In this document: piece after piece, positions 5,104-56,940 of the stretch
Layout of the letters: each line of letters opens with the position of its first letter
Numbering within the stretch: the stretch's first letter is position 1
Assembly: GCA_003602475.1 (NCBI GenBank)
Contig: QQSC01000043.1
Location: 20,984 to 84,983, forward strand
Direction: 5' to 3'
From: Candidatus Poseidoniales archaeon
Lineage (GTDB): Archaea; Thermoplasmatota; Poseidoniia; Poseidoniales; Poseidoniaceae
Length of the DNA stretch: 64,000 nt
Made by a program: the position numbers and the translations under genes
Notes under the pieces: generated by a model
Databases searched by the model: none
What the model was told of the DNA's origin: nothing
What the model saw: the letters and a program-made list of their open reading frames with translations, nothing else

Positions 5104-7062
5104 ATGACATCACCAACCATGAGCGGTTTACTGACCCACACGCTCGTACTCATGCTTACTTTGAGCGCTTGGTCAGCTCTGCCACACGCCGAGCTGCTGG
5201 AACATCACGAGCCTGCCTTAACGGAGGGAAGGCAGACGTCGATGGACGTTGATTGCGAAGGGTATTCGTTCGAAGATCTCTTCGAGTACGACTTCGCATT
5301 GTTTGGTCTGAACGTGCTCGAGGACTGGGCCACTGGTGAAATGTCGGCCACTGCATGGGTCAACAACTCCAATTCCGCTATTGTTCGAGCAAATCTTGAC
5401 GGATTGTTCGAAGGCATCAGCGACAACGATTACATCAGCACCGATGAACGAGAAGCCATTCGGAGCATCGGACCTTCTTGCATAGCAGACATGGACACGC
5501 GGCTCACCATGACCGAAGGAGCGCCACACTCCGGTGAAGGGACCTTGAACGCGTTTGAATTTGTTGAAAGCGGCATCAACCTCAACGAGGTCAATCTTGT
5601 CCCACTGGACCACCCTGAAGTGCGTACTTGCCAAACATTTGGTTCCACATCTGGATGCAAAGAAGTCCCTACAACAGCCACCGACAATTTGGAAATCACG
5701 CTCGGCCTTCAGGAAGATGAAACCAACAATGTGCGCTGGGACCAACTTCCAAACAGCGGAGTTTCAAACTTCACGCTCAGCATGAACATCACCAACATGA
5801 GCAATGCCGCCCTTGTGGTGACCTTCCCCGCCTTGACGGGTCTCCGCCTGGTGGATTTCAGAATAACCGACAACAACCCAGCAAGCGGCGAAAACTGTGA
5901 TTACATCGACGCCCCAGATTTCAGTTATCTCTCCAATGGCGCCCTCCATGTCACACAACTTGTGAACTTTGATCGAACGTTGTGGGACCTTCAGTGCCAC
6001 ATGTTCATGGATTTTACAACCCAAGTACCTCTGGCCAACTCGCCCCCGGTGTGGACGCCAAATGCCCCTGACAATGGAACAGTGATTGGGACGGGAGGAC
6101 CGGGAACCACGATGTTCAGCACTGGATTGGAATCCGGTGCGTGGGCAACAGACGATGATGCATGGCGTTTGTCCTGCGATTTTGACGAAGATGGATGGAC
6201 CGTGACAACCAACGTCCTGGGCGACCTTTTCGTGAATCAACCAACGGGTCAGGCCTCATCGATGGCAACGTGTCATTTGGTGGATCCACTTGGAGCCAAC
6301 GACACAAACGACACGCGGACGTGGTCGTTCGGAACGGTCATTACCGGCACAGCAAGCATAGGACAAAACGCGCAAAGCGTCACGGTGCTGCTCAACAACA
6401 CCGGCCTTGTAGAATCAGCTGTTGTGCAACTCAGAACCGTCCAAGACGGCCTCCAAGGTTCAGTTTCGGAAAACACGACCCTGATGACTGGCACTGAATT
6501 GGAAGTAACGATGACGATGAACGGGCTCCGCCCGGGTACTTTCAACATTGAAGGAACCGTTCACGCTGCCAACATGTTGCCGTTCTCGTTTGCTCTGCCT
6601 TCGGATTTGATCAAGCCGAACAGTCCACCAATCGTCAACGTTCAAGTCAATTTCTTTGGTGAAAACGCCACGTGGAGCGACAACCTCCAACGGTTTACCG
6701 TCACAGGGACCGTTTCAGATCCAGACCTGGAAGGTGTTTCGATGCGACTGTCGTTGTGCGGTGCTGAGTACACGGATTTCACGATTGAAAACATCAATTG
6801 GGCGATTGAAGTATCCACCGCAATTTGCTTGGCCTACAGCTTGGAAGTCAACGAAGTGCTTCTGACCGTGACCGATGATTCGGGTGCTTCAACACAACTG
6901 CAAGTTGGCATTGAACGCCCCGATGCCACTCAGGATGATTCCGACATCGGCAATCCCGAACCCTCCATGGACAGCGACAGTGCGTTACCGTCGCTCTCGT
7001 TCATGGCCACGCTAAGCATGCTTGGAGCAGCGATGTTCCTCCGTCGGCAAGACCGAGATTAA
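5104..7062 (+). CDS. Secreted/cell-surface protein with N-terminal signal peptide and C-terminal hydrophobic anchor
   Basis: N-terminus MTSPTMSGLLTHTLVLMLTLSAWSALPHA looks like a signal peptide. The C-terminus ...LPSLSFMATLSMLGAAMFLRRQDRD is a hydrophobic helix followed by basic residues. The body is acidic and N/T/S-rich. No enzyme motif seen. Confidence 0.6.
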   Translation: MTSPTMSGLLTHTLVLMLTLSAWSALPHAELLEHHEPALTEGRQTSMDVDCEGYSFEDLFEYDFALFGLNVLEDWATGEMSATAWVNNSNSAIVRANLDGLFEGISDNDYISTDEREAIRSIGPSCIADMDTRLTMTEGAPHSGEGTLNAFEFVESGINLNEVNLVPLDHPEVRTCQTFGSTSGCKEVPTTATDNLEITLGLQEDETNNVRWDQLPNSGVSNFTLSMNITNMSNAALVVTFPALTGLRLVDFRITDNNPASGENCDYIDAPDFSYLSNGALHVTQLVNFDRTLWDLQCHMFMDFTTQVPLANSPPVWTPNAPDNGTVIGTGGPGTTMFSTGLESGAWATDDDAWRLSCDFDEDGWTVTTNVLGDLFVNQPTGQASSMATCHLVDPLGANDTNDTRTWSFGTVITGTASIGQNAQSVTVLLNNTGLVESAVVQLRTVQDGLQGSVSENTTLMTGTELEVTMTMNGLRPGTFNIEGTVHAANMLPFSFALPSDLIKPNSPPIVNVQVNFFGENATWSDNLQRFTVTGTVSDPDLEGVSMRLSLCGAEYTDFTIENINWAIEVSTAICLAYSLEVNEVLLTVTDDSGASTQLQVGIERPDATQDDSDIGNPEPSMDSDSALPSLSFMATLSMLGAAMFLRRQDRD

Positions 7063-7102
7063 ACCGACACAACCAAAAGGAAAGGGCGGCGCGTGGGAAT
7101 CC

Positions 7103-8401
7103 ATGTTCACGGGTACCGTACAGTCCAAGTCACACGAAGGTGGCTTGCTCGTCACCTTTGATGGTTCATCCCCTTCACTCAACGCAATTGTGGTTCTGGC
7201 CAACGATGGTACGTACATCGGGAAGGTGGATGGAGTCATCGGCTCGACCAATCAGCCAATGGCACACGTCGCTCACATTGATCGAAGCCTGAACGTTGAC
7301 GACCTTATGGGGTCCAACGTCACCATTCGCCCAAAAAAGAAGCGCGAAGAACGAACAGAACGTTCTCGTTCAGACCGTGGAGGGCGAGACGACAGGCGCA
7401 ATCGAGACAATCGAAGCGACCGATTTTCTTCCAACGACCGGCGACCTCGGAACGACCGAAGCGGTCGAGACGGCAACAACCAGAACGATTGGGATTGCCC
7501 GGAATGCGGGAACGATAATTTCGCATTCCGAAATGAATGCAACCGCTGCGAAGCGCCTCGGCCCAACGGAGGTGGAAATCGAAGTGGTCGTCAAGGTGGT
7601 CGCCAAGATGGTCGTTCCAACGGGCGTGAACGGTTCGGTGGACGCAACAACCACGGGGACAACGACTGGGATTGTGGTGAATGCGGCAACTCCAATTTCG
7701 CCTTCCGCCAAGAATGCAACATGTGCAGTGCCCCACGATCCGGCGGACGTGGCCAGTCCCGTGGTCGGCATAACGATCGCCAGCAAAGAGACAACAGAGG
7801 GTCAAACCGGCGTCATGATGACCGAGGAGGACGCAACAACAGCACGTTTACTCACAACGATTGGGATTGCGGTGAATGTGGCAATTCCAACTTCTCCTTC
7901 CGTCAAGAATGCAACCGCTGCGAAGCGCCCCGCCCTGGAGGCGGTGGTGGAGGTGGCCGTGGCGGTGGACGCTCTGAGGGACGTGGACGAGGCGGCGACC
8001 GGTCACAGCGGCGCCCACAAGGTCGATACGACGGTGGTGGCCGCGGTGGCGGGCGGTCAGAGGGACGAGATCGCGGTGGTGACCGACCGCAACGTCGCTC
8101 GCAAGGACGCTACGACGGAGGACGTGGTAACGACCGAGGACCCAGAGACCGTTCTGGCGGTTCTGACAGAGGTTCATTCGACAGAAGTCGCCCACGGCGA
8201 AACGGTGACCGAGACTCAAGCAGAGGAAATGGTGGCGACGGGGACCGCCCACGCCGGACCAACCGAGAAGGCGGTCGTGAACAGCGTCCACGCGATGACT
8301 CCTTCCGTCGTGCTCGAGGCAAGCGGCCCGGACACGCTCACAATCGCCCACCAAGAGACTTCAGGGAACCTCGTTCGTTTCAACGCAAAGACGAGGATTG
8401 A
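7103..8401 (+). CDS. Gar1-like beta-barrel protein fused to 3 RanBP2-type zinc fingers and RGG/GAR low-complexity tracts
   Basis: The ATG at 7103 is the first start after the upstream stop at 7062. The N-terminal ~80 aa match the archaeal Gar1 pattern (G.V...K.G.L.V......PSLN..V......IG.V..V.G....P). W-x-C-x2-C-x3-N-x6-C-x2-C occurs three times, at 7490-7549, 7667-7726 and 7862-7921. The remainder is R/G/D/N-rich. Confidence 0.7.
   Translation: MFTGTVQSKSHEGGLLVTFDGSSPSLNAIVVLANDGTYIGKVDGVIGSTNQPMAHVAHIDRSLNVDDLMGSNVTIRPKKKREERTERSRSDRGGRDDRRNRDNRSDRFSSNDRRPRNDRSGRDGNNQNDWDCPECGNDNFAFRNECNRCEAPRPNGGGNRSGRQGGRQDGRSNGRERFGGRNNHGDNDWDCGECGNSNFAFRQECNMCSAPRSGGRGQSRGRHNDRQQRDNRGSNRRHDDRGGRNNSTFTHNDWDCGECGNSNFSFRQECNRCEAPRPGGGGGGGRGGGRSEGRGRGGDRSQRRPQGRYDGGGRGGGRSEGRDRGGDRPQRRSQGRYDGGRGNDRGPRDRSGGSDRGSFDRSRPRRNGDRDSSRGNGGDGDRPRRTNREGGREQRPRDDSFRRARGKRPGHAHNRPPRDFREPRSFQRKDED
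7955..8122 (+). repeat. 84-bp (28-aa) tandem duplication inside the RGG tail
   Basis: GRGGGRSEGRGRGGDRSQRRPQGRYDGG is followed directly by GRGGGRSEGRDRGGDRPQRRSQGRYDGG. The DNA copies start at 7955 and 8039. Confidence 0.85.
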
Positions 8402-8416: not shown

Positions 8417-9451
8417 ATGAGCGCAGAATCCCATTACCTCAACGCTCTTGAAGCGCTTGAAGAAGGGGACCGGGAACTCGCCAGAACTGAGGCGAAGGCG
8501 GCCACTTCGATCGATAACGAGCACATCGAAGCATGGTCAGTGTACGTTGATTCAAGCCTCCCACCGCAAGGCTCCCCTCCCAACATGGTCCAAGCCGGTC
8601 GTGCACTTGCCGGTATCAAGCACATCGTTGCTCTTGAACCAAGTCGAGTGGACATGTGGTTACGTGGCGGTCGAATCATGGCCGATGATTTGGGCATGCT
8701 TCACGATGCGTTGCACTGGTGGCAGGACTGTCTCAATCACAACCCAGATGATGTTACCCCGGTCGTTGAAATGGCATCGATCTTGGCTGATATGGGAGAA
8801 TACGAGATGGCCAGTCAACGGTTGCAATCCATCCTCAACGACAACATGGACGTGGGAATGACACAATTTCGAAAAATCAACAGCCTGTTGCAACTGGTTA
8901 AACAAGCTGCTACTCAGCAGCAGGAGGACATTTTTCGACCAGAGCAACGACGGCACAATGGATGGGGGGCTATTCAGCAAAAAATGAAAAAGCCACCCAT
9001 GTCTGAAAATTTCTTGTTCCTTGTGTCAACGGTTCCGTTCCTCCTTCTTGTTTTTCTTCTTGCCCCGCGAATGGCTCAGGGCGGTTGGTTCGCCTTTTGT
9101 CTGAACACCATTGTCATCTTGCTGATCGTAACGGTCGGTATGCGTAATGCCAAACGATGGTTCCAAATTGTGAACAGGCCAGCGTTCAACCTGCTTCGGG
9201 CGATGAATTTCGAGGCCTCGACGGGTTACACTGTCGTCCCGGAAGACGTCCGCACGTCTGTGCTTTACATGTACATCATGCAGCGCAAGCCGTTGGCATG
9301 GCAAGAACGGATGTTGAAAATTATTGACAAAGGGTCATCCTTGCCGAACAGTTGGCGCGCACGCTATCCCTCATTCACAACTACGGCGCTTGTGGACAAT
9401 GTTGAGGAAGACACCGCCAACGCTGACCTTCAAGCATACGAAGACGAGTGA
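8417..9451 (+). CDS. Hypothetical membrane protein with N-terminal TPR-like helical region
   Basis: The ATG lies 16 nt after the upstream stop. The N-terminal ~190 aa are helical-repeat-like (weak TPR resemblance). Two hydrophobic helices follow (FLFLVSTVPFLLLVFLLAP, WFAFCLNTIVILLIVTVG), and the C-terminus is acidic. Confidence 0.55.
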   Translation: MSAESHYLNALEALEEGDRELARTEAKAATSIDNEHIEAWSVYVDSSLPPQGSPPNMVQAGRALAGIKHIVALEPSRVDMWLRGGRIMADDLGMLHDALHWWQDCLNHNPDDVTPVVEMASILADMGEYEMASQRLQSILNDNMDVGMTQFRKINSLLQLVKQAATQQQEDIFRPEQRRHNGWGAIQQKMKKPPMSENFLFLVSTVPFLLLVFLLAPRMAQGGWFAFCLNTIVILLIVTVGMRNAKRWFQIVNRPAFNLLRAMNFEASTGYTVVPEDVRTSVLYMYIMQRKPLAWQERMLKIIDKGSSLPNSWRARYPSFTTTALVDNVEEDTANADLQAYEDE

Positions 9452-11105: not shown

Positions 11106-14100
11106 TCATTGCTGAGATTGAGCGTATTGTACAGCGTACTGTTGAGCATATGCGGCAGCCGTTGCCGCATCGTACCCTTGTCCGACAAATTGCTGGTAAT
11201 ACTGGTCATAGATGGCTTGGTCGTAACCCGCTGCTGGCTGTGCTGCTGGTTGGGCTGCTGGTTGAGAAGCTGCCTGTCCGCCACCGACGTATTGGGCTGC
11301 GAAGGAACGTGCCGTCTCTTCTGGGTAGCCTTGAGCGATGAGTTGCTGAACGTACTGTTCGGTTGGATCAAGCGCCATAGCCCCAAAGCCACCATCCATG
11401 TCTGCAAAGGCGTCTTCCTTTTCGCCACCGCGGCGTGCGAACATCAAACTCACGAGAATCAGAACCACGAGGCCAATGCCACCTGCAATGACAACCGTTG
11501 AGTCGAGGCCTTGGCCTTCACCTTGCGTGTTGTCGGCGCCATCGGATGGCGCAGACCATTCACCCGTGACCGGGTCATAGGTCCATGCTCCGTCCCACTG
11601 ACAATTTCCGTTAGCATCCAAGATGAATTCTCCTCCGGCTGCATCAGCATCTGGATCCGCCTCCAATCCCTGACAGGCAGGGAGGTTGATTTCGATCCAC
11701 TTTATGGTGACCCAACGCTGGTTGGGGAATTCACCCTCGTAATACTTGATGAACACCTCTTGTGTTCTTGAAGCGTTCGTGTATTTTGAAGACAATGACA
11801 ATGTGATTTCAAAGGTGTCACTGTCCCCCAAAGCCGAACTTTTGCCCCAGAGGTCGAGTTCACTCAAGTTGTACTTCATGACTGAAGAGACACCGAAGTC
11901 CTCTTCATTGAACGCTGCCTCAACATACACATCCCCATCCTCAGCACCAGAAAGGATGGTACCGGAAATGGTGATGGTGTCGGCGTCGACCCGCGTGTCG
12001 TTGAGGTTGACTTGTTCCCATTGCACGACCGGCTCCTCATCGCCGAAGCCTTCGGGGACAACCACGAAGTACATTCTGTGGCGCTCGGAGAGTTTACCTG
12101 CGCTGTCGTAGACCACCAATTCCACACGGATTTGGTTTTCGATTGTGCCGGTGGAATCCACGGTCACGTTCTGGAAACGGTAGGACCAGGCTCCGTTGCT
12201 GGCAGCACCTTGAGTGAACGTGTGGCCGTCGAGGTCGAAACTATCGTCGCCATAGGGTGCGTCAAAGAGAACCTTCCACTGGTAGCTTTCAATGCCTCTG
12301 CTTGGATCGCCTTCAAGCGCATCTCGGTCAGAGGAATTGCTAGCGTCAAAGTTAATCACCAACTCAGCGTCGTCGCCTTCACCTTGCAAAATGATGCGGT
12401 GAACGTCCCATTCCTGACCAGAAACCGTCTTGGTGCCAACAAATTGAACGTTGTCTTCGTAATCTGGGCGAATGTCAATGCTCGCTGAAGCCTCCGGTCG
12501 GAATTCGTCTGCATAAACGTCGTTGGTTTCAACGGTCAAGTTGATCGTTCGTGCGTGCCCGTTGGCGTCGTGAAGCATCAAGGTCACGAACCAGCGCTCA
12601 CCTTGAGCACAGCCGGTCTGTGAAGCCAAGTCAATCTTACAGAAGGTCATGTTCGGGTTCATGTCCGTGGTATGATCAGTGGCACCGTTGGCCAAGCTGT
12701 CACCTTCCCAATCTGTAGGGCCTTGAATAATCCAATCTGCCGTCAAGGTCTCCGTGGTGTCGGTGTTGTATCCGAACACAAGAGCCGCATTGCTCTTCAT
12801 GTATCGAAGCGCATAGTCACCGGTGCTCGGATCAATGTCTGGTGTGACGCCATTCACGGTCAAATCAAGACCGTTGCCGAGGGTTCCGAAACCTTGTGGA
12901 TACGGATCCACATGGTACTGAAGCATGTTTCCAAGAAGGGGGAAGGTGGTACTGTCAGCGCGTTCTGAATGGGATGCGACGTCGATCGTGGAAACGATGA
13001 GGCCACCGGAGTAGTAACTGCAGACGCCAAGAACGGTGTCTCTAATGTCGGAAGTGGAACGAATCAATCGTTGGAAGAATCCTCCGTTCTCCATGTATCC
13101 GTTGCAAGCGTTTGGAACATTCGCTGCATTGTTGTTTTGAGTGTTGAGCACAGCTTGGGCGACTCCTGAGGATTGATCAAAGCCTTGGAAGGAAGTGGGA
13201 TCCACGTTGTCCATCATTGGATGGAAGGGGTCGGCGAGGTCCATGGTGGCAAACGTAACTTGGTTGGTCGAATCCAAGCTCTGAATGTTGAGACCAAAGG
13301 GCAATCGACCAGGCAACTGGTCGTTCAGACCGTAGATTTGCTCTCCCTGCGGTCCAAGGTGAGCCTGTACGGTACCGCCTGCAGACATGAAATTTTCAAG
13401 GATGGTCCGTCGAGCCGGTTCACCGATGTACTGGTAGTAACCGTCTCCACCAAATTGAGTGTCACGGGCAGATAGCGTGTCCTGCCATGGCAGAATGATT
13501 TTCCCGTAATGGGTGAACCATCCAGCGTCAAAGTACGTGTCCCAGTCGTTGATTTCAAACTGGGTGTAACTCATGTTCAGAAGAGCCATGTCTTCCTTGA
13601 TCGCAGTGGTACGAACCGATGTGTCCGACAAGATTGCCACGTCGACCATGTCAGCGAACGAAGCATGGAAGTATCGGAGGTTTCCAGTTTCGGAACCATC
13701 GGCCAATTGTCCATAGAAGCTGATGTTGTACGTGTGGCCATCCATCCAACCGTTCCAAGGTGTAAAGGACACTTCAGTGCGCTCTTGGCTCTCAAGTGTT
13801 CGTGCTGCACCAGCGGTGACTTGGTGAGCCAAAGTTCCGTCGGCCATGTCGTGAACGTCCATGAAGAACACGTAATCTCCGCCAAGCACACCATTGGTTG
13901 CTGAGAACTCCCAGTCATGAGTCAAGGCGCTGTCAATGGGGAGGACACATGTCAGAGTCTGGTCGCTGTGGCACGCCAATGTATCGGGTCGGCCAATCGA
14001 GATGTCCACGGATTCAACGTTGAAGATTACACGCTCCACGTTGTTGGCTTGGGAAATTTCCTCGTTGTTGAACCATGCTGTCCCCGCAGTGGTGTTGTCG

Positions 14101-17100
14101 TAGAGGGTACGTACGTCAACTCGATACACTCCGGAGAGGAACTCGTGGGACCCTACAACGGTTGTGGCGGCATCTTCGGCGTCAACGTTCGTTCGAGTTG
14201 TCGTGTAGGTTGCGTCTTCTACGAAGGTGTATTCCTGAAGGCTGATGTTGTTGAATCCAACGCCCTTGAACCCGTCGTTGATGCCGTTTCGCCCATCATC
14301 ATCGGATTGGAAGGTGAAATTCACAGTCACGGTTGAACCCTGAAGCGAAAGACATTCGTTTGTCCAAAGGAACGAGTCCGCAGAGGAGCGGTTCTGGATG
14401 TACAAGTGGGTCAAGTCAATGCTTGTGGTCTTAACAAGTTCGTCGCTGTTGAAGAACACGTTGTAATTCCCATCCGTACCCTCGAGCGTTGCCGGGTCGC
14501 CGATGTAATCGAGTTCGGTGATGTCAATGGATTCGGTGGCGTTGATGATGCCGTTTTCATCATCGTCGTTTTGACAGGTGCCGTCTTCGTTGTAGTCGTT
14601 CCACTGGGCGTAAACGAGACCGTTGTAGTTTTGTCCTGCGTTGGCATAGTCAACCGTCATGGTCACGTAATCACTCGGGTCGATGTTGCCTGACTGATCG
14701 ATGGTGTAAAACGTGTCAGCGTAGTACTCAAAGTTCAAGGAGACAAAGTCTCCATTTTCTGCCGTCAAATCAATGTTCGGAATGGTGAGGGTCTGATTGG
14801 CCCATGCGTCGTCATATCCGAGTGTAGAAGTATCGCAGGGGTGGCCAAACCAATAGGCGTTGCTGTTGAAGATCTTGGTCGAACAGGTGTTCTCGTTGTA
14901 AATAGCTCCCAATGGATTTTGATTTTCTTGGTAGCGGGTGCCTTCAGTACCACCTTCAAACGACTCAACGCACACAGCAGAAGGCGTTCCACAGTACACA
15001 TCCGATGGTGTTGCTGAATAGACCGTAGCTTCCACGTCGAAGTCAACTGGAGTGTTGCCCCAATTGTTGGTGATGACCTCAATGTCGAAGGTGCCTTCTG
15101 CGTAGAGGCTACCGGGTGCGAAATTTTCAATCGATTCTACCGCTGGATCGTAGAGGTTGAACGGGGTCACGTATCCAATGGCGTCGTTGTTGATCGGTTG
15201 TTCGTCCCAGTTGTTGTTGGAGAGCGTGGCTGAGATGCGGTAGGTGGTGTCGTTGAGCACGTCCGCTTGAATCGAAGTCGTGTACTCTTGGCCAGGTTGG
15301 AGGTTGTTGAGTGTAATGGTCGTGGATTGAACCTGGGGGTTGGGGAAGAAAACCGTGTTTTGCTTCGAAATGGACAGGTTGTCCACTGCAAATCCGTCTC
15401 GGCCAGTCCAGAGGCTTTCGTTGGCGTTGGATGTGGATCCCTCAAAGCCAGTTCGGAACCGGAACCGGAGGTCCACTGTCTCCCCCGCCCAAGGCGAGAG
15501 GTCAAAGGCTCCAAGATCCTCATCGGTGAAGTTGTCCCAACCGTAAAACGTTCCTGATGCTGCAAGGCCATAATAGACAATGTTCTCTGCTGCAGCGCCG
15601 TAGAAATTCTGTTTGAAGCCGCGGTCGGTGTCGAATCCACCCCATACCGAAACACCGTTGGGGCAAGCACCCTCGATAGCGGCGCGTTGTGGGCAACCGA
15701 TCACGTTCCAGCCACTCTCGGCACTGCCGACTTCCACGATGGCAAGGTCGTCCCACACGTCACCGACGATGAAACCACCTTGTTGGTCGAGGTTACCCAA
15801 TGCTCCAAGGCCGAGATGTCGGAAGAGTTCAACGTCCATGAACGCACGGTCAGCGCCCGTCAGGTCCACATTCTCAAGGACCATGGCGTCGTCCCAGTTG
15901 TTTCCATAACCGCTCCATGAGTCACCAGAGGCGTTGGTCACCATGTTGCCAGCCCACATAAAGTCGGTTGGATTGAGGTAATTGGCGGAAAAGTTCTCGC
16001 CGTTGTTGCCGTCTGAGGCACCGGTGGAGTGGTTGGTCTCCAAATGCCAGCTGGTGGATTGGTCAATGTATTCCTCGAAGGCCCAGGTGCAACCCGTGCC
16101 ACAGTTGCTCACAGGAGTGCTGTCCCAATCGTTGGCGTACACCGTGGTGTTGGTGGAGTTGACTTGGTCAACCACCTTGAGTTCGACCGCGAGATCGGCG
16201 GTTTGGCCGTTGAGTGTGTCCATGCCGGTGTTGGTTACCGTGACGTTGAACGTCCGGGTTCCCTCTCCGACAATACCGAAGAACCGGTCAACTGGGTCAA
16301 CGGTCAAGTCCGTCACGGCCAAATCACGGTTGTCCATTTCAACCACCGTGATGGTGTCGTATTGTCCTTCCCAACCGAAGTTGTCACGCCACCCACCGAA
16401 GTTGTACTGAGTGTGGCCAACGGCAAGGTCAGGGGCGGAATTGGCAGCACCCTGAAGTTGTCCTACAGCCACTGAAGACGGTCGTCGGCCTGCGGTGTAC
16501 GATAGCGGGCTCACGTGGCCTCCATTGCCATCAGAGAGCGTTACTTGGACAGATGTGGGGAACGAGAGAAAGAAGCTCGATGTGCTTCCGCCAGAGGAAT
16601 CTGAAGTGTTCACCTGGTAGGCGATGGTGGGGTTGATGAAATCGGCTTGATTGTCCCCATTGAGGTCTTCAATGGCGATCCCCCAAGAGATGTAGGGGCC
16701 AAAATAAGCGTTTTGAGAAGCACCAAACGTCCCTTGAGCCGATGCTGATTTGTACGTCACGTTTTCGAGGTTTCCGTCGTTCATGGCGATGGTGTCAACG
16801 TAGCCGACTCCAGCGACGTCTGCGATGGCAAAGTCCTCAGAAAACGGGACGCCAAATTGAATCACGGTCGGGTTGGACGATGTGATGTCGGTGGGGTAAG
16901 CACCTGGCGTGCTTTGGACGCCAGTGCAGGAGTATTCCACGATGGTGACGTTGTCGCCATTGCCGGGGTTTGTGGTCTGACCGGAGGCGTAGTCGAGGCC
17001 TTCCGAGCGAAGCAAGAAAATGTCATCGTCGGTGCAGCTGCCGCCCAGGCCCACGGTTTGTGTTTCACCGTAATCACCGACCTCGAGAGAGCGGTACGTG

Positions 17101-17900
17101 AACGTTGTAGAGGTTCCAAGGAATACTGGAGTGCCTTGGGTTGTGGAAGTGATGGGGCCTCGGTAACTTACAACGTTCTGGCGAGTGAGGTCTTCTTCCA
17201 ATTCAAGAACGAAGATGTCGTCGTTGCCGTCTTGATCAGCGTCGCCGACGGTCATGTCCCAAACCCAAAAGTGCGTGAAGCGTTGGCCAATCGACCAATC
17301 TTTGTTGTTGCAGCCGTCGTTCTCAATGATGGTAACGTTGCCTGGCTCTCCTGCGGGAGCGCCCTGGTCGTTTTGTTTGAAGGGATTGTTCTTCTGGTAG
17401 ATGACAATGTCAGGTGCGTTGTCATCGGTGAATTCTCCGACTTCGATCTGTTCGACGTTGGCAAATTCGTCCCAATCGGCATTTCTGCTGGCATTTGCGG
17501 ACACCCAAATGTCCTGTCGCTCACTGAAATCACCCGTTCCATCGTTCCAAAGAATGCTCAGCGTGTGCGTGCCCTCAGTGGCAATTGCCATGTCGTTGTG
17601 GCCGTCGCAGTTGAAGTCGGCAATGGCGATGTCCACAGGGTCGCGGTTGGTGGTGTAGGTGCGCGCCACCGAGGCACTGGCGGTGGTGGTAAATGCGAGT
17701 GTGGTGCTGAACACCATCAACACAGCAAGGAAAACGCTGCGGATTCGGGCCTTAGAGAGGTCGCTTTGGGTTTGCATAGACATCAGTACTTTCGCCAAGC
17801 CCTGTTGCCATTTAATGCCTTTGTCTTGAGGTTTGCCAGACATGGGGCGCAGGAGCCCGAAACCGCTATGTTGTATCCGAAATTTATTTCTAAATTTCAT
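11106..17900 (-). CDS. Giant (>2200 aa) cell-surface protein with FG-GAP/VCBS-like repeats, C-terminal TM anchor and cytoplasmic Q/Y/A-rich tail
   Basis: A single uninterrupted ORF. The signal-anchor is IRSVFLAVLMVFSTTLAFTTTASA. FG-GAP-like Ca-binding loops are present (FNCDGHNDMAIA, GDADQDGNDDIFV, DLNGDNQADFI). The TM helix VVIAGGIGLVVLILVSLMFARR lies ~105 aa before the stop. The start is uncertain, with ATGs at 17924, 17900, 17843, 17783 and 17777; 17900 sits 2 nt after the upstream gene's TAA. Confidence 0.8.
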   Translation of the reverse strand: MKFRNKFRIQHSGFGLLRPMSGKPQDKGIKWQQGLAKVLMSMQTQSDLSKARIRSVFLAVLMVFSTTLAFTTTASASVARTYTTNRDPVDIAIADFNCDGHNDMAIATEGTHTLSILWNDGTGDFSERQDIWVSANASRNADWDEFANVEQIEVGEFTDDNAPDIVIYQKNNPFKQNDQGAPAGEPGNVTIIENDGCNNKDWSIGQRFTHFWVWDMTVGDADQDGNDDIFVLELEEDLTRQNVVSYRGPITSTTQGTPVFLGTSTTFTYRSLEVGDYGETQTVGLGGSCTDDDIFLLRSEGLDYASGQTTNPGNGDNVTIVEYSCTGVQSTPGAYPTDITSSNPTVIQFGVPFSEDFAIADVAGVGYVDTIAMNDGNLENVTYKSASAQGTFGASQNAYFGPYISWGIAIEDLNGDNQADFINPTIAYQVNTSDSSGGSTSSFFLSFPTSVQVTLSDGNGGHVSPLSYTAGRRPSSVAVGQLQGAANSAPDLAVGHTQYNFGGWRDNFGWEGQYDTITVVEMDNRDLAVTDLTVDPVDRFFGIVGEGTRTFNVTVTNTGMDTLNGQTADLAVELKVVDQVNSTNTTVYANDWDSTPVSNCGTGCTWAFEEYIDQSTSWHLETNHSTGASDGNNGENFSANYLNPTDFMWAGNMVTNASGDSWSGYGNNWDDAMVLENVDLTGADRAFMDVELFRHLGLGALGNLDQQGGFIVGDVWDDLAIVEVGSAESGWNVIGCPQRAAIEGACPNGVSVWGGFDTDRGFKQNFYGAAAENIVYYGLAASGTFYGWDNFTDEDLGAFDLSPWAGETVDLRFRFRTGFEGSTSNANESLWTGRDGFAVDNLSISKQNTVFFPNPQVQSTTITLNNLQPGQEYTTSIQADVLNDTTYRISATLSNNNWDEQPINNDAIGYVTPFNLYDPAVESIENFAPGSLYAEGTFDIEVITNNWGNTPVDFDVEATVYSATPSDVYCGTPSAVCVESFEGGTEGTRYQENQNPLGAIYNENTCSTKIFNSNAYWFGHPCDTSTLGYDDAWANQTLTIPNIDLTAENGDFVSLNFEYYADTFYTIDQSGNIDPSDYVTMTVDYANAGQNYNGLVYAQWNDYNEDGTCQNDDDENGIINATESIDITELDYIGDPATLEGTDGNYNVFFNSDELVKTTSIDLTHLYIQNRSSADSFLWTNECLSLQGSTVTVNFTFQSDDDGRNGINDGFKGVGFNNISLQEYTFVEDATYTTTRTNVDAEDAATTVVGSHEFLSGVYRVDVRTLYDNTTAGTAWFNNEEISQANNVERVIFNVESVDISIGRPDTLACHSDQTLTCVLPIDSALTHDWEFSATNGVLGGDYVFFMDVHDMADGTLAHQVTAGAARTLESQERTEVSFTPWNGWMDGHTYNISFYGQLADGSETGNLRYFHASFADMVDVAILSDTSVRTTAIKEDMALLNMSYTQFEINDWDTYFDAGWFTHYGKIILPWQDTLSARDTQFGGDGYYQYIGEPARRTILENFMSAGGTVQAHLGPQGEQIYGLNDQLPGRLPFGLNIQSLDSTNQVTFATMDLADPFHPMMDNVDPTSFQGFDQSSGVAQAVLNTQNNNAANVPNACNGYMENGGFFQRLIRSTSDIRDTVLGVCSYYSGGLIVSTIDVASHSERADSTTFPLLGNMLQYHVDPYPQGFGTLGNGLDLTVNGVTPDIDPSTGDYALRYMKSNAALVFGYNTDTTETLTADWIIQGPTDWEGDSLANGATDHTTDMNPNMTFCKIDLASQTGCAQGERWFVTLMLHDANGHARTINLTVETNDVYADEFRPEASASIDIRPDYEDNVQFVGTKTVSGQEWDVHRIILQGEGDDAELVINFDASNSSDRDALEGDPSRGIESYQWKVLFDAPYGDDSFDLDGHTFTQGAASNGAWSYRFQNVTVDSTGTIENQIRVELVVYDSAGKLSERHRMYFVVVPEGFGDEEPVVQWEQVNLNDTRVDADTITISGTILSGAEDGDVYVEAAFNEEDFGVSSVMKYNLSELDLWGKSSALGDSDTFEITLSLSSKYTNASRTQEVFIKYYEGEFPNQRWVTIKWIEINLPACQGLEADPDADAAGGEFILDANGNCQWDGAWTYDPVTGEWSAPSDGADNTQGEGQGLDSTVVIAGGIGLVVLILVSLMFARRGGEKEDAFADMDGGFGAMALDPTEQYVQQLIAQGYPEETARSFAAQYVGGGQAASQPAAQPAAQPAAGYDQAIYDQYYQQFVGQGYDAATAAAYAQQYAVQYAQSQQ
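11230..11265 (-). repeat. 12-bp x3 microsatellite encoding (AAQP)3 in the tail of the giant protein
   Basis: Plus strand reads gctgctggctgt gctgctggttgg gctgctggttga. The protein reads QPAAQPAAQPAA. Confidence 0.8.
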
Positions 17901-17902
17901 TC

Positions 17903-18559
17903 TTAGATTCGACCGGCTAGCCATTTCGGGGAAGGTCCCCAACCCGTGGCGTCACCGCCGTGAATTTTGACCAGTTTGCCGGCTGCAAACAACGATTCCA
18001 ACCAAACTTCCAGTGTAGTCCCTTCACGGTCGCCAAGCTTTGACGAGGCGATTTCTTCGATATCTTCCGTACGCAAGCCGCTCATGCCGTGGTCACGAAC
18101 GACAACTTCGAGCAATTCTCGAAGCCAAGCTTCTGCCATTGGGTCCACGCTGGTCACGCTTTGAACGGGATGTGGCGTGTCGGTGTCCTCGAGAACATCC
18201 ATCAACCCAACCACGTCGGGACGACTCGGTCCTTTCAGTCCGGATTCATCTAGACGTTCCTGGATGTTCAACTGCCCAATCGGGCGCCGAACCACCGGAA
18301 TCCGACTCGGATCCGGTGTTGGCCCCATGTCATTGGGAGCCTCCGGAACGTCTTCCGGTTGACCTGCTGAATCAACAGTGACCGGTGAAAGGTTGGTCGA
18401 TTTTGAGGGCTTTCCGGCCGGCATGGTCCAACCCACACCTACCAAGCCCAATTCGTCAACCTTCGAGGCGACCCAGTCGGCTTCACCTTCGATGATGACA
18501 TTCACATCGTGGTCGTCGGAGCGAAAGCGGTATCGAACCTGTCCTCGAAGTTCACCCAT
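17903..18559 (-). CDS. Hypothetical protein (218 aa) immediately upstream of the giant surface protein gene
   Basis: ATG start preceded by GAGGCGG. Acidic/proline-rich middle and helical C-terminal ~80 aa. No family motif recognised. Confidence 0.5.
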   Translation of the reverse strand: MGELRGQVRYRFRSDDHDVNVIIEGEADWVASKVDELGLVGVGWTMPAGKPSKSTNLSPVTVDSAGQPEDVPEAPNDMGPTPDPSRIPVVRRPIGQLNIQERLDESGLKGPSRPDVVGLMDVLEDTDTPHPVQSVTSVDPMAEAWLRELLEVVVRDHGMSGLRTEDIEEIASSKLGDREGTTLEVWLESLFAAGKLVKIHGGDATGWGPSPKWLAGRI

Positions 18560-29863: not shown

Positions 29864-29922
29864 ATTCTCGTTGACACGGTATCTTCAAACCCTATGAACA
29901 TCTCCTGAGAAACGGTGAGGTG

Positions 29923-30393
29923 ATGGCACGAGTTCGAGGCGACCCCATTACCACGGCTCTGGCGCATCCAACTCGCCGGAACGCCTACATCCAACTGTCC
30001 CAAACGGAGGAGATGAGCACCGTTCAACTCCAGCAAGCGGTTGATGTTGACCGCTACAATCTCTACCACCATCTGAAAAAATTGGCATCGCTTAACCTCG
30101 TGGAAAATCATCGCGACGAAGGGCGGGCTCGATGGTGGCGTGTCTGTGATCGTGTGGAACTGCCTGAGTTGCTCCATGCCTCAGGTCAACGAGGTCCAAG
30201 CGCCGGTACAGCCGAAATGATCCAAGGGCCGGTTGAGGATCGCGAGACATTCGCCCTGAAGTTCCACAACTCGCATGACCAAATCGCAGCAAAACAATTC
30301 ATCGAACAATTGGCCGAACTGTACGGTTTTGAAGTGGAACTGCCGTGGAATTTCATACCAGAGGAGTTGGTCCTCTACAGCAAAAAGAGGTGA
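29923..30393 (+). CDS. ArsR-family winged-helix transcriptional regulator
   Basis: HPTRRNAYIQLSQTEEMSTVQLQQAVDVDRYNLYHHLKKLASLNLVE fits the ArsR/SmtB HTH pattern. It lies directly downstream of the metal ATPase. Confidence 0.7.
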   Translation: MARVRGDPITTALAHPTRRNAYIQLSQTEEMSTVQLQQAVDVDRYNLYHHLKKLASLNLVENHRDEGRARWWRVCDRVELPELLHASGQRGPSAGTAEMIQGPVEDRETFALKFHNSHDQIAAKQFIEQLAELYGFEVELPWNFIPEELVLYSKKR

Positions 30394-30399
30394 AGGGTG

Positions 30400-30792
30400 A
30401 TGACCGAAGAACTTTCAGTGGAATCCACAATTGCCCCGCCAGCTTTGAGCTGTCCAAAATGCAACGGCATGCTCCCGATGAAACTCGGAGAGGTGGAATG
30501 CGCTCTGTGTGGAGCCCAAGCTAGGGTGAATCACCCCGGGACTCGAAAGGCATGGATGAAGGAAAAGATCAGTTGCCCATCCTGTTCGTCAGTTCTTGTG
30601 GCAGGAATCGATAAACGACCCGCTGAACTCAAGTGCGGCTCATGCCAATCCTACTTCATGCTCACACGGAAGGTCCCAAAAGTTGAGGTGGATTGTCCGG
30701 GCTGCGAACGGACGTTGCGGATGAGGCAGCGTCCCGGGCGCCGAGACATCGAGTGCCCAGCCTGTGCAACAGAATTTGCGGTCAATTTCTGA
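30400..30792 (+). CDS. Triple zinc-ribbon protein (MJ0042-type-like CxxC pairs)
   Basis: Six CxxC pairs form three ribbons: CPKC..CALC, CPSC..CGSC and CPGC..CPAC. The last one (VDCPGCERTLRMRQ..GRRDIECPACATEFAV) resembles the MJ0042-type finger. The gene starts 7 nt after the ArsR stop. Confidence 0.65.
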   Translation: MTEELSVESTIAPPALSCPKCNGMLPMKLGEVECALCGAQARVNHPGTRKAWMKEKISCPSCSSVLVAGIDKRPAELKCGSCQSYFMLTRKVPKVEVDCPGCERTLRMRQRPGRRDIECPACATEFAVNF

Positions 30793-30892
30793 AACCTCCG
30801 CCCTCTCCACCCGCCCCAAAAACGGCCCTTGAGTCCCCCATTGTTGTCGCGCACCTTATCTATGAAGAGAAGTGCATGAAGCAGTGGATGGG

Positions 30893-33553: not shown

Positions 33554-33589
33554 ATCGGACGTTCTTCACAAACAAGCGCGTGGTTCATA

Positions 33590-56877: not shown

Positions 56878-56940
56878 ACCCGCCAATGCAATTATGAAGG
56901 GGGGGCCGGTCGCCGAATCATTCCCTTGGAGGTTACGAGA

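What the first reader, a model, noticed from the sequence alone, without database searches (positions are those of the whole stretch)
7103..8401. Archaeal Gar1-like protein carrying three RanBP2-type zinc fingers and eukaryote-style RGG/GAR tracts
**Seen in the sequence**
- The first ~80 residues (FTGTVQSKSHEGGLLVTFDGSSPSLNAIVVLANDGTYIGKVDGVIGSTNQPMAHVAHID...GSNVTIRP) follow the pattern of the small archaeal H/ACA-RNP protein Gar1.
- About 350 residues of R/G/D/N-rich low complexity follow.
- Three copies of DWDC(P/G)ECGN(D/S)NF(A/S)FR(N/Q)ECN(R/M)C are embedded in that tract. Each fits W-x-C-x2-C-x3-N-x6-C-x2-C exactly, the RanBP2/ZRANB2/FUS-type finger signature.
- A 28-aa RGG unit is tandemly duplicated at 7955-8122.

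**Established knowledge**
- Archaeal Gar1 is normally a bare beta-barrel.
- GAR flanks are a hallmark of eukaryotic Gar1.
- RGG-ZnF-RGG is the architecture of eukaryotic FET-family ssRNA-binding proteins.

**Inference**
- This could be an RNA-guided pseudouridylation component with added ssRNA-binding or condensate-forming capacity.
- It could instead be a Gar1-fold protein recruited to another RNA process.
- I cannot judge novelty without a database search.
Basis: partly seen in the sequence, partly recalled or inferred. Interest (0 to 1): 0.8.

Follow-up and report, generated by a model that had tools for sequence, protein, structure and literature searches.

The report
Archaeal Gar1 with FUS-like RNA fingers
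In Marine Group II archaea (Poseidoniales), the small Gar1 subunit of the RNA-guided pseudouridine synthase carries a long tail of RNA-type zinc fingers and arginine-glycine repeats, features that reviews call eukaryote-specific; it is conserved across the order and I found no paper describing it.

Summary
Window 7103-8401 (+) encodes a 432-aa protein with four parts:
- An 80-residue N-terminal beta-barrel.
- Three RanBP2-type zinc fingers (Pfam 89.5 bits against a cut-off of 27).
- R/G/D/N-rich disordered linkers that include a true RGG tract with a diverged 28-aa tandem repeat.

The barrel is a divergent Gar1:
- Pfam Gar1 scores below its cut-off (19-23 bits against 29.3).
- An order-wide profile finds P. 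furiosus Gar1 as the best solved structure (E = 3e-5; hhalign 94%).
- An AlphaFold model (pLDDT 91) matches Gar1/Naf1 structures in its top 16 Foldseek hits (TM 0.75-0.84).

The fingers keep every residue that ZRANB2 and FUS use to read GGU in single-stranded RNA.

The gene is a syntenic, apparently single-copy core gene of Poseidoniales. At least 246 GTDB species genomes carry it, with 0-5 fingers. Some MGIIb orthologues have plain basic tails.

Best reading: this is the order's Gar1, extended by an ssRNA-binding and possibly condensate-forming tail. I could not test whether a second canonical gar1 exists or whether the protein binds Cbf5. I rate it a new variant of a known kind, of moderate to high interest.

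The parts
7103..7336 (+). Gar1-type six-stranded beta-barrel core (aa 1-78). It carries the hallmark P-x-L ... (I/V)GK(V/I)D-x-(V/I)-x-G motif.
   Evidence: The AF2 model has pLDDT 91.2. The top 16 Foldseek PDB hits are all Gar1/Naf1, with P. furiosus Gar1 at TMq 0.75-0.76, TMt 0.82-0.84 and rmsd 1.6-2.1 A. An order-wide profile against PDB sequences puts 2hvy_B Gar1 first at E = 3.1e-5. hhalign against Pfu Gar1 gives 94% probability, E = 1.4e-7. Pfam Gar1 is the only family hit, in 20 of 21 family members, all below the cut-off.
7337..7483 (+). Basic, acidic and Arg-rich linker 1 (aa 79-127: KKREERTERSRSDRGGRDDRRNRDNRSDRF...), predicted disordered.
   Evidence: pLDDT is below 50 for aa 90-124 in the full-length model. 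The conserved 'IR(A/P)KK.REER' follows the barrel in homologues.
7484..7567 (+). RanBP2-type zinc finger 1 (aa 128-155, NDWDCPECGNDNFAFRNECNRCEAPRPN).
   Evidence: Motif match. Pfam PF00641. The best PDB match is the FUS finger 6g99_B at E = 1.6e-6. pLDDT is 94-96.
7568..7660 (+). RG/RQ-rich linker 2, predicted disordered.
   Evidence: pLDDT is below 50 for aa 157-185.
7661..7744 (+). RanBP2-type zinc finger 2 (aa 187-214, NDWDCGECGNSNFAFRQECNMCSAPRSG).
   Evidence: Motif match. The best match is ZRANB2 finger 2 (2k1p/3g9y) at E = 3.8e-6. pLDDT is 94.
7745..7855 (+). R/D/N-rich linker 3, predicted disordered.
   Evidence: pLDDT is below 50 for aa 216-249.
7856..7939 (+). RanBP2-type zinc finger 3 (aa 252-279, NDWDCGECGNSNFSFRQECNRCEAPRPG).
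   Evidence: Motif match. pLDDT is 91-95. The DNA unit is 78% identical to the finger-2 unit.
7940..8137 (+). Glycine-arginine (RGG/GAR) tract containing two diverged 28-aa tandem units (7949-8032 and 8033-8116).
   Evidence: TRF finds period 84, 2.0 copies, 74% matches. The repeat finder family D2 covers the same units. RGG occurs at aa 286, 296, 314 and 324.
8138..8302 (+). R/D/S/G-rich disordered segment.
   Evidence: pLDDT is below 50 up to aa 401.
8303..8401 (+). Conserved C-terminal peptide FRRARGKRPGHAHNRPPRDFREPRSFQRKDED plus the stop codon. Function unknown.
   Evidence: The motif [FY]R[RK][AS][RK]GK..GHAHN lies at the extreme C-terminus of 111 family sequences. It is present in 48 of 53 complete GTDB genes. 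R402, G406, H411, A412, H413, N414 and P417 are invariant in 45 sequences.
8417..9451 (+). Conserved downstream neighbour: a 344-aa protein with weak TPR matches and a hydrophobic C-terminal half (read by eye as membrane segments). It is probably co-transcribed. This is context, not shown to be functionally linked.
   Evidence: The gap after the stop codon is 15 nt. A homologue sits directly downstream in all loci examined that have enough sequence (61 loci). There are only weak TPR hits.

Best explanation
[quoted passage not shown] In this order it has acquired a long C-terminal 'beads-on-a-string' RNA-binding extension.

**Shown**
- Residues 1-78 form a Gar1 beta-barrel.
- Three independently folded C4 RanBP2 fingers follow, separated by predicted-disordered Arg/Gly/Asp-rich linkers.
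- There is a bona fide RGG tract and a conserved C-terminal peptide.
- The architecture is conserved, syntenic and apparently single-copy across the order.

**Inferred**
- As in P. furiosus and yeast, the barrel docks on the catalytic domain of Cbf5. There it holds and releases the thumb loop, which controls substrate loading and product release.
- Each finger binds a GGU/GGN trinucleotide in single-stranded RNA. All ZRANB2/FUS RNA-contact positions are invariant in the family.
- The RGG and R/D linkers add low-specificity RNA affinity and multivalency.
- The tail would then tether the Cbf5-Nop10-Gar1 enzyme to G-rich single-stranded stretches of pre-rRNA, tRNA or other targets. This would raise the local substrate concentration or chaperone RNA folding.
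- The tail might also drive RNA-dependent clustering of the RNP.
- Finger number (0-5) changes quickly through unit duplication and loss, while the barrel and the C-terminal peptide are held constant.
For: **Gar1 identity**
- Foldseek top 16 hits are all Gar1/Naf1, with archaeal Gar1 first.
- The profile search of the PDB puts P. furiosus Gar1 first (E = 3.1e-5), then yeast and human Gar1.
- hhalign gives 94% probability.
- Pfam Gar1 is the sole family hit for 20 of 21 members.
- JGI's pipeline names three clusters 'rRNA processing protein Gar1'.

**Orthology and core status**
- At least 246 GTDB species genomes carry it.
- The gene order is the same (ABC transporter, ~650-aa surface protein, this gene, TPR gene, giant FG-GAP protein, aconitase) in MGIIa, MGIIb and divergent members.
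- At that same locus some members are ordinary-looking Gar1 of 154-167 aa with K/R tails and no finger (P0203, P0207, P0181).
- MAGs with several hits show identical synteny at each, so they are mixed bins rather than paralogues.

**RNA-type fingers**
- Pfam scores 89.5 bits.
- The best solved relatives are the FUS, RanBP2 and ZRANB2-F2 fingers; the FUS and ZRANB2 fingers bind RNA.
- In 225 family fingers, D4, N14, aromatic-17, R20 and N24 are 98-100% conserved (numbering of PMC6384913). Position 19 is F, R or W, as in FUS/EWS (W) or ZRANB2 (R).

**Disorder plus folded beads**.

**Role of the Gar1 core and of RGG tracts in eukaryotic Gar1**: PMC7991803 and PMC8096250.
Against: - The Gar1 match is below the curated cut-offs of Pfam (19-23 bits against 29.3) and NCBIfam.
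- An exhaustive HMMER search with the MGIIa N-terminal profile reached no canonical Gar1 among 1.84 billion representatives. Only 120 clade members were found. The clade is therefore strongly divergent.
- No cbf5, nop10, L7Ae or H/ACA RNA lies in the 64-kb window. The neighbours are surface, membrane and metabolic genes, so context gives no support.
- I could not search a whole Poseidoniales genome, so a second canonical gar1 is not excluded.
- Cbf5 binding, zinc binding and RNA binding are all untested.
Confidence: 0.65

Rival explanations
1. It is a Gar1-fold paralogue that has left the H/ACA RNP, much as Naf1 is a Gar1-fold assembly factor in eukaryotes. It would act as a general ssRNA-binding protein, RNA chaperone or scaffold in another RNA process. 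The true gar1 would lie elsewhere in the genome or have been lost.
For: - Strong sequence divergence from canonical Gar1.
- No RNA-modification genes nearby.
- A conserved pairing with a TPR gene of unknown role.
- The extra conserved C-terminal peptide suggests an additional partner.
Against: - The closest structures are archaeal Gar1 rather than Naf1.
- The hallmark Gar1 motif (I/V)GK(V/I)D..(V/I).G is invariant.
- Plain Gar1-like members occupy the same locus.
- No second Gar1-like ORF was seen in the ~615 kb of Poseidoniales DNA held. That DNA surrounds one locus only, so this is weak evidence.
Confidence: 0.22
2. The fingers are protein-interaction modules, like the ubiquitin-binding NZF fingers of Npl4 or the Ran/exportin-binding fingers of RanBP2/Nup153. 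They would not bind RNA, and would recruit Gar1 to a protein partner.
For: - RanBP2-type fingers include protein-binding subclasses. RanBP2 and Nup153 fingers also appear among the PDB hits.
- The RanBP2-type finger of Sulfolobus ArnA sits in a signalling protein (PMC6509490).
Against: - All residues that separate the RNA-binding subclass are 98-100% conserved in 225 fingers: D4, N14, aromatic-17, R20 and N24.
- The best single-finger matches are the RNA-bound FUS and ZRANB2 fingers.
- The fingers are embedded in RGG/Arg-rich sequence typical of RNA binders.
Confidence: 0.08
3. It is an assembly or annotation artefact: a short gar1 fused in silico to repetitive low-complexity sequence, or a frameshifted chimera.
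For: - The tail breaks assemblies. 24 of 77 GTDB contigs end inside the gene and 3 have N-runs in it.
- A 95.5%-identical contig (QXXW01000015.1) ends within or just past the 84-nt repeat.
Against: - More than 200 independent sequences from many samples share the same order of barrel, fingers and C-terminal peptide in one frame.
- The repeats are diverged, at 71-78% DNA identity.
- The conserved C-terminal motif is in frame.
Confidence: 0.02

Closest known systems
Archaeal Gar1 (e.g. Pyrococcus furiosus Gar1, PDB 2HVY chain B / 2EY4 chains C and D)
   Same: - Same six-stranded barrel (rmsd 1.6-2.1 A over ~75 residues, 23-25% identity).
- Same P-x-L and (I/V)G-x-V-x-x-V-x-G motifs.
- The barrel sits at the N-terminus and is followed by a basic tail.
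   Different: - The P. furiosus tail is ~25 Lys-rich residues. Here the tail is 354 residues with three zinc fingers, an RGG tract and a conserved terminal peptide.
- The sequence is so diverged that the curated Gar1 models do not call it.
Eukaryotic Gar1/GAR1 (yeast 3U28 chain C, human 7TRC chain D)
   Same: - A Gar1 core plus glycine-arginine-rich (RGG) regions.
- Reviews describe these regions as absent from archaeal Gar1 and eukaryote-specific (PMC7991803, PMC8096250).
- The fold matches (TMq 0.67-0.74).
   Different: - Eukaryotic GAR regions flank the core on both sides and contain no zinc fingers.
- Here all additions are C-terminal, and much of the tail is R/D/N/S-rich rather than pure RGG.
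FET proteins (FUS, EWSR1, TAF15): the RGG - RanBP2 finger - RGG module
   Same: - The finger sequence is very close to the FUS finger. Compare NFAFRNECNRCEAPRP here with NFSWRNECNQCKAPKP in FUS (E = 1.6e-6).
- There is an aromatic residue at position 19, as in FUS/EWS.
- The fingers are flanked by RGG-rich disorder.
   Different: - No SYGQ-rich prion-like domain or RRM was detected (Pfam); a nuclear localisation signal was not looked for.
- There are several fingers instead of one.
- The module is attached to a Gar1 barrel, and the organism is an archaeon.
ZRANB2 (ZNF265): tandem ssRNA-binding RanBP2 fingers
   Same: - Multiple fingers are joined by flexible linkers.
- All GGU-contact residues are conserved.
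   Different: - ZRANB2 has two fingers plus an RS domain and acts in splicing.
- It has no Gar1 domain.
Naf1 (eukaryotic H/ACA assembly factor with a Gar1 fold, PDB 2V3M)
   Same: A Gar1-fold domain within a longer protein with disordered extensions (Foldseek hits at ranks 8, 12 and 16).
   Different: - It matches less well than true Gar1 (TMq 0.62 against 0.75).
- Naf1 has no fingers and is known only from eukaryotes.

Membership tests
Gar1 (H/ACA RNP subunit; Pfam PF04410, NCBIfam NF009631/NF009632) | Six-stranded beta-barrel of the Gar1/Naf1 type | tested here: met
   The AF2 model has pLDDT 91.2. The top 16 Foldseek PDB hits are all Gar1/Naf1, with TMt 0.82-0.84 to P. furiosus Gar1.
Gar1 (H/ACA RNP subunit; Pfam PF04410, NCBIfam NF009631/NF009632) | Sequence score above the curated family cut-off | tested here: not met
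   Pfam Gar1 scores 19 bits for the full protein and 23.4 bits for the domain alone, against a cut-off of 29.3. NCBIfam Gar1 scores 19.1 bits against 139. MGIIb members also score below the cut-off.
Gar1 (H/ACA RNP subunit; Pfam PF04410, NCBIfam NF009631/NF009632) | Statistically significant homology to experimentally characterised Gar1 by profile methods | tested here: met
   hmmsearch of profile A3 against PDB sequences puts P. furiosus Gar1 first at E = 3.1e-5, followed by yeast Gar1 at 0.013. hhalign gives 94% probability and E = 1.4e-7 over 70 columns.
Gar1 (H/ACA RNP subunit; Pfam PF04410, NCBIfam NF009631/NF009632) | Binds the catalytic domain and thumb loop of Cbf5 within a Cbf5-Nop10-L7Ae-guide RNA particle | not testable with these tools
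   No Poseidoniales Cbf5 sequence was available, there is no multimer prediction, and there is no experiment. No cbf5 or nop10 lies in the window.
Gar1 (H/ACA RNP subunit; Pfam PF04410, NCBIfam NF009631/NF009632) | It is the genome's only Gar1, i.e. an orthologue rather than a paralogue | tested here: inconclusive
   The locus is syntenic and single across the order, and plain short forms occupy the same locus. No complete genome could be scanned for a second gar1.
RanBP2-type zinc finger (Pfam PF00641) | W-x-C-x2-4-C-x3-N-x6-C-x2-C signature and a score above the cut-off | tested here: met
   There are three exact matches. The score is 89.5 bits against 27, in 3 stretches. Each finger is modelled as a zinc-ribbon bead with pLDDT 91-96.
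RanBP2-type zinc finger, ssRNA (GGU)-binding subclass (ZRANB2, FUS, EWS, RBM5/10) | Conserved RNA-contact residues D4, N14, aromatic-17, R/aromatic-19, R20 and N24 (numbering of PMC6384913) | tested here: met
   In 225 family fingers: D 100%, N 100%, F/Y 100%, F/R/W 99%, R 100%, N 99%. The residue roles come from PMC6384913. The best PDB matches are the FUS and ZRANB2-F2 fingers.
RanBP2-type zinc finger, ssRNA (GGU)-binding subclass (ZRANB2, FUS, EWS, RBM5/10) | Measured zinc-dependent binding to GGU/GGN single-stranded RNA | not testable with these tools
   This needs recombinant protein and binding assays.
RGG/GAR domain | Clustered RGG/RG repeats within a disordered glycine-arginine-rich region | tested here: met
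   Residues 280-345 hold 4 of the protein's 6 RGG motifs. The tail has 15 RG and 21 GR, with G 19% and R 24%. It is predicted disordered. Across the 53 complete GTDB genes the median is 5 RGG per protein, with a range of 0-17.
RGG/GAR domain | Arginine methylation by a PRMT | not tested
   No PRMT-like gene lies in the 64-kb window. The rest of the genome was not available.
FET family (FUS/EWSR1/TAF15) | SYGQ-rich low-complexity domain plus an RRM plus a single RanBP2 finger flanked by RGG | tested here: not met
   Pfam finds no RRM and no other domain. The N-terminus is a Gar1 barrel. Only the RGG-finger-RGG module resembles FET proteins.

The most novel reading that the evidence does not exclude
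An abundant order of marine archaea has attached a FET/ZRANB2-like multivalent RGG plus GGU-reading zinc-finger module to an H/ACA RNP subunit. It did so either independently or by capturing a eukaryotic RNA-binding finger. This would give a prokaryote the kind of GAR-domain, condensate-prone, RNA-tethering Gar1 that has been regarded as a eukaryotic (nucleolar) innovation. If so, Poseidoniales would cluster their rRNA-modification machinery on nascent RNA in a nucleolus-like way. The finger number (0-5) would tune this, and the tail might be arginine-methylated.
Probability: 0.25. Interest if true: 0.75.

Novelty: new variant of a known kind. Interest (0 to 1): 0.58.

Why it matters
- **It contradicts a textbook statement.** Reviews of H/ACA RNPs say archaeal Gar1 lacks GAR/RGG regions and treat them as eukaryote-specific (PMC7991803, PMC8096250). 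Here a whole order of very abundant ocean archaea has a Gar1 with an RGG tract and, beyond anything known in eukaryotic Gar1, up to five FUS/ZRANB2-type RNA fingers.
- **It gives a simpler test system.** The role of RGG tracts in Gar1 is still described as elusive. This protein allows that role to be tested without a nucleolus.
- **It offers a candidate for RNA-driven clustering in archaea.**
- **It bears on the origin of RNA-binding RanBP2 fingers**, whether archaeal, convergent or transferred from eukaryotes.
- **It has practical consequences for annotation.** Curated models miss the Gar1 domain, so gar1 will look absent from Poseidoniales genomes. The repetitive tail also fragments short-read assemblies.

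Tried and rejected
**Searches that were too weak or led nowhere**
- Single-sequence phmmer of the N-terminal 86 aa against PDB sequences found nothing. The MGIIa-only profile gave P. furiosus Gar1 at only E = 1.5. A broader MGIIa+MGIIb profile was needed.
- The exhaustive HMMER search of 1.84 billion representatives with the MGIIa profile found only 120 clade members and no bridge to canonical Gar1.
- The look-up of encoding contigs found no record for the identical protein P0001. Context was taken from homologues instead.
It was fixed in A2.
A2 was used, which biases the count of 246 genomes towards MGIIa-type sequences.

**Context and literature**
- Neighbour genes gave no RNA-related clue. 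The rest of the window has no cbf5, nop10, L7Ae, PRMT or H/ACA RNA.
- Literature searches for Gar1 + RanBP2 + archaea, Marine Group II + Gar1, Poseidoniales + zinc finger, and 'archaeal Gar1' + 'GAR domain' found nothing on this fusion.

**Ideas considered and rejected or set aside**
- Several hits in one MAG (isolates RS440 and SAT1329) are not true paralogues. Each copy has the same flanks, so these are mixed bins.
- Fingers spread through other Poseidoniales genes: none was found outside this gene in 615 kb held. That DNA is all from around one locus, so this is weak evidence.
- I ran no further search on a 'second gar1' test. The 120-row output cannot be filtered by taxon, so it would not have answered the question.
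- The idea that the fingers read the GGU of the tRNA T-arm next to U55 is noted only as speculation.
Full report
**1. What is in the sequence**

The longest ORF over the finding runs 7022-8401 on the + strand. Virtually every homologue begins M-F-x-G, so the gene starts at ATG 7103, 41 nt after the upstream gene ends at 7062. It encodes 432 aa.

Three exact W-x-C-x2-C-x3-N-x6-C-x2-C matches lie at 7490-7549, 7667-7726 and 7862-7921. No others occur in any frame of the 64-kb window.

The 354 residues after the N-terminal domain are R 24%, G 19%, D 11%, N 10% and S 8%. They contain 6 RGG, 15 RG and 21 GR.

An 84-nt (28-aa) unit is tandemly duplicated at 7949-8116, with 74% nucleotide identity. 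The three finger-coding units are 71-78% identical to the reference copy. These are old duplications kept in frame, not collapsed repeats.

**2. The zinc fingers**

Pfam Zn_ribbon_RanBP (PF00641) scores 89.5 bits in three stretches, against a cut-off of 27. Against PDB sequences the best matches are:
- the FUS finger (6g99_B, E = 1.6e-6);
- RanBP2 itself;
- ZRANB2 finger 2 (2k1p/3g9y, E = 3.8e-6);
- RBM10 and ZNF265.

I collected 225 fingers from 104 full-length family members. In the numbering of PMC6384913, the ZRANB2 positions that contact GGU are D4, N14, the stacking aromatic 17, R19, R20 and N24. In the family fingers these are D 100%, N 100%, F/Y 100%, F/R/W 99%, R 100% and N 99%.

An aromatic residue at position 19 is the FUS/EWS state. 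That paper reports it does not change GGU/GGG specificity. The fingers therefore belong, by sequence, to the ssRNA-binding subclass. RNA binding itself is inferred, not shown.

**3. The N-terminal domain**

Single-sequence evidence is weak:
- Pfam Gar1 scores 19 bits (E = 1.3e-3, cut-off 29.3).
- NCBIfam Gar1 models score far below their cut-offs.
- phmmer against PDB sequences finds nothing.

The signal is consistent, though. Of 21 diverse family members, 20 hit Pfam Gar1 and essentially nothing else.

A profile of 29 MGIIa and MGIIb sequences (A3) finds P. furiosus Gar1 as the top PDB sequence (E = 3.1e-5). Yeast Gar1 (0.013) and human GAR1 (0.3) follow. hhalign of that profile against P. 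furiosus Gar1 gives 94% probability and E = 1.4e-7 over 70 columns. The alignment pairs the P-x-L and (I/V)G-x-V-x-x-V-x-G motifs.

An AlphaFold2 model of residues 1-83 is confident (pLDDT 91.2, pTM 0.81). Its 16 best Foldseek matches in the PDB are all Gar1 or Naf1:
- P. furiosus Gar1 leads (TMq 0.75-0.76, TMt 0.82-0.84, rmsd 1.6-2.1 A, 23-25% identity).
- Insect, yeast and human Gar1 and Naf1 follow.

The domain is a genuine but strongly diverged Gar1 barrel.

**4. Whole-protein architecture**

The full-length model shows a confident barrel (aa 1-80) and three confident finger beads (about 126-156, 186-215 and 250-284; pLDDT 91-96). Segments with pLDDT below 50 separate them (90-124, 157-185, 216-249, 285-401).

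- It sits at the extreme C-terminus of 111 family sequences.
- It is present in 48 of 53 complete genes from GTDB genomes.
- R402, G406, H411, A412, H413, N414 and P417 are invariant in a 45-sequence alignment.

Its function is unknown. A partner-binding peptide is a reasonable guess.

**5. Distribution and orthology**

The word-indexed search found 252 relatives. The 120 listed all carry 1-5 fingers. The identical protein is 'hypothetical protein DWC07_07260, Candidatus Poseidoniales archaeon'.

An exhaustive HMMER search of 1.84 billion representatives with the N-terminal profile found only 120 proteins, all from this clade. Source names place the divergent members in Thalassarchaeaceae (MGIIb) and 'Thermoplasmatota'.

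A scan of GTDB representative genomes found 246 genomes with a relative. The 80 kept are almost all labelled Poseidoniales, Poseidoniaceae or Poseidonia.

| Set | 0 fingers | 1 | 2 | 3 | 4 | Source |
|---|---|---|---|---|---|---|
| 104 full-length proteins | 4 | 7 | 64 | 26 | 3 | |
| 53 complete GTDB genes | 1 | 5 | 29 | 11 | 7 | |

The single zero-finger GTDB gene (L072) is interrupted by an N-run. One sequence, P0033, has five fingers.

Some clade members, three of them named as Thalassarchaeaceae (MGIIb) by their sources, show other tail types:
- plain K/R-rich tails of 154-167 aa (P0203, P0207, P0181, P0179);
- an RGG/YGG-only tail (P0193);
- variant or degenerate fingers (P0190, P0195, P0212).

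The gene order is: ABC transporter, a ~650-aa surface protein, this gene, a ~340-aa TPR protein, a ~2200-aa FG-GAP protein, a ~220-aa protein, then aconitase.
- MGIIa and MGIIb loci and the window share it. The finger-less divergent member P0203 keeps the same neighbour genes in a rearranged order, with the TPR-like gene still directly downstream.
- All 86 loci held carry the upstream homologue.
- All 61 loci with enough sequence carry the downstream one.

MAGs with two or three hits show the same flanks at each, so they are mixed bins, not paralogues. The fused and plain forms are therefore orthologues at one conserved locus. Fingers are gained and lost within that lineage.

**6. Mechanism proposed**

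Established knowledge (PMC7991803): the Gar1 core binds the catalytic domain of Cbf5, does not touch the guide RNA, enhances catalysis, and controls substrate loading and product release through the thumb loop.

In yeast Gar1, the RGG regions modulate RNP dynamics and turnover and probably touch substrate RNA. Their role is called elusive (PMC8096250).

I infer the following:
- The Poseidoniales barrel keeps the Cbf5-docking role.
- The tail adds multivalent, partly sequence-specific (GGU/GGN) ssRNA binding. This would tether the enzyme to nascent or unfolded RNA, chaperone it, or cluster RNPs.

Cbf5 binding, RNA binding and any condensate behaviour are all untested inferences. My confidence in this overall reading is about 0.65.

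**7. Rivals**
- **A Gar1-fold paralogue working outside the H/ACA RNP (0.22).** The divergence, the uninformative context and the extra conserved peptide favour it. The plain forms at the same locus and the better match to Gar1 than to Naf1 weaken it.
- **Protein-binding fingers (0.08).** The invariant RNA-contact residues weaken this.
- **Assembly artefact (0.02).** Order-wide conservation in one frame excludes it. The tail does break assemblies, however:
  - 24 of 77 GTDB contigs end inside the gene, and 3 contain N-runs.
  - A 95.5%-identical contig stops within or just past the 84-nt repeat.
  - The copy number of that unit in the window is therefore not independently verified.

**8. Comparison with what is known, and novelty**
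- It is a Gar1 by fold and by profile homology, but it fails the curated sequence cut-offs. PGAP-style annotation accordingly calls it 'zinc finger protein' or 'hypothetical'. Only JGI labels some copies 'rRNA processing protein Gar1'.
- It works like a eukaryotic Gar1 in having an RGG tract. It resembles FET and ZRANB2 proteins in its RGG-finger-RGG modules. It is not a FET family member, because Pfam finds no RRM and the N-terminus is a Gar1 barrel rather than an SYGQ-rich domain.
- RanBP2-type fingers are not unprecedented in archaea. Sulfolobus ArnA has one (PMC6509490).
- I found no paper describing a Gar1-finger fusion or an archaeal Gar1 with RGG tracts. Reviews state that archaeal Gar1 lacks such regions.
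- I rate it a new variant of a known kind. It is conserved across an ecologically dominant order, with moderate to high interest (0.58).

**9. Limits**
- No complete Poseidoniales genome could be scanned. I therefore could not check directly for a second gar1, for cbf5, nop10, L7Ae and H/ACA RNAs, or for an arginine methyltransferase. None of these lies in the 64-kb window.
- The origin of the fingers (archaeal, convergent or transferred from eukaryotes) was not tested.

Noticed in passing
window 8303-8398: There is a strongly conserved C-terminal peptide, [FY]R[RK][AS][RK]GK..GHAHN[RQN].P[RK]...(D/E)(D/E). It may be a partner-binding or metal-binding (H-x-H) motif, but its function is unknown.
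   Followed up: partly
window 8417-9451 (+): A 344-aa protein with weak TPR matches and a hydrophobic C-terminal half (membrane segments judged by eye) always lies directly downstream on the same strand. The gap is 15 nt here, and the genes overlap in L005. It is syntenic across MGIIa and MGIIb, probably co-transcribed with the gar1-like gene, and of unknown function.
   Followed up: partly
window 7022-7102: The public annotation of the identical protein (P0001, 459 aa) starts at TTG 7022, inside the upstream gene. Homologues show the true start is ATG 7103.
   Followed up: yes
L007-L086 (GTDB Poseidoniales loci), e.g. L012, L015, L026, L068, L078; N-runs in L027, L061, L072: About a third of representative contigs (24 of 77) end inside this gene, and three have scaffold gaps in it. 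The repetitive Arg/Gly tail is a recurrent assembly breakpoint in Poseidoniales MAGs.
   Followed up: yes
window 11106-17942 (-): A giant 2278-aa ORF occupies the syntenic position of proteins with weak FG-GAP hits in other MGII loci. It is followed by a ~220-aa ORF and an 892-aa ORF at the position of aconitase (assigned by synteny only; these ORFs were not scanned). It is probably a large cell-surface protein.
   Followed up: no
window 56926-57804 (+): A 292-aa protein combines an FKBP-type peptidyl-prolyl isomerase domain with a C-terminal SAP domain (PF02037, E = 4e-11). SAP is a DNA/RNA-binding motif best known from eukaryotic nuclear proteins.
   Followed up: no
window 29920-30792 (+): An HTH_20 regulator is followed by a 131-aa protein with double zinc-ribbon (Zn_ribbon_6) and TackOD1-like matches.
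   Followed up: no
P0190, P0194, P0195, P0212/P0240, P0193 (divergent clade members; P0212/P0240 named Thalassarchaeaceae): Tail variants occur in divergent clade members. Some fingers have a C-x4-C last pair (GDWxCPKCxNHNYASKxxCNRSxC). One finger is degenerate (WVCSACRSMNSRTSKCSKC). One tail is RGG/YGG-only with no finger. These may be intermediate or decaying states of the module.
   Followed up: partly
L025 (NZEQ01000076.1): A contig titled 'Verrucomicrobiales bacterium' carries the complete Poseidoniales locus (upstream protein, gar1-finger gene, TPR gene). It is almost certainly a mis-binned archaeal contig.
   Followed up: partly
window 30872-36070 (+): Two large adjacent ORFs (893 and 826 aa) have no or only trace Pfam matches. 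They lie in a stretch with unusually high AT skew (0.17-0.21).
   Followed up: no
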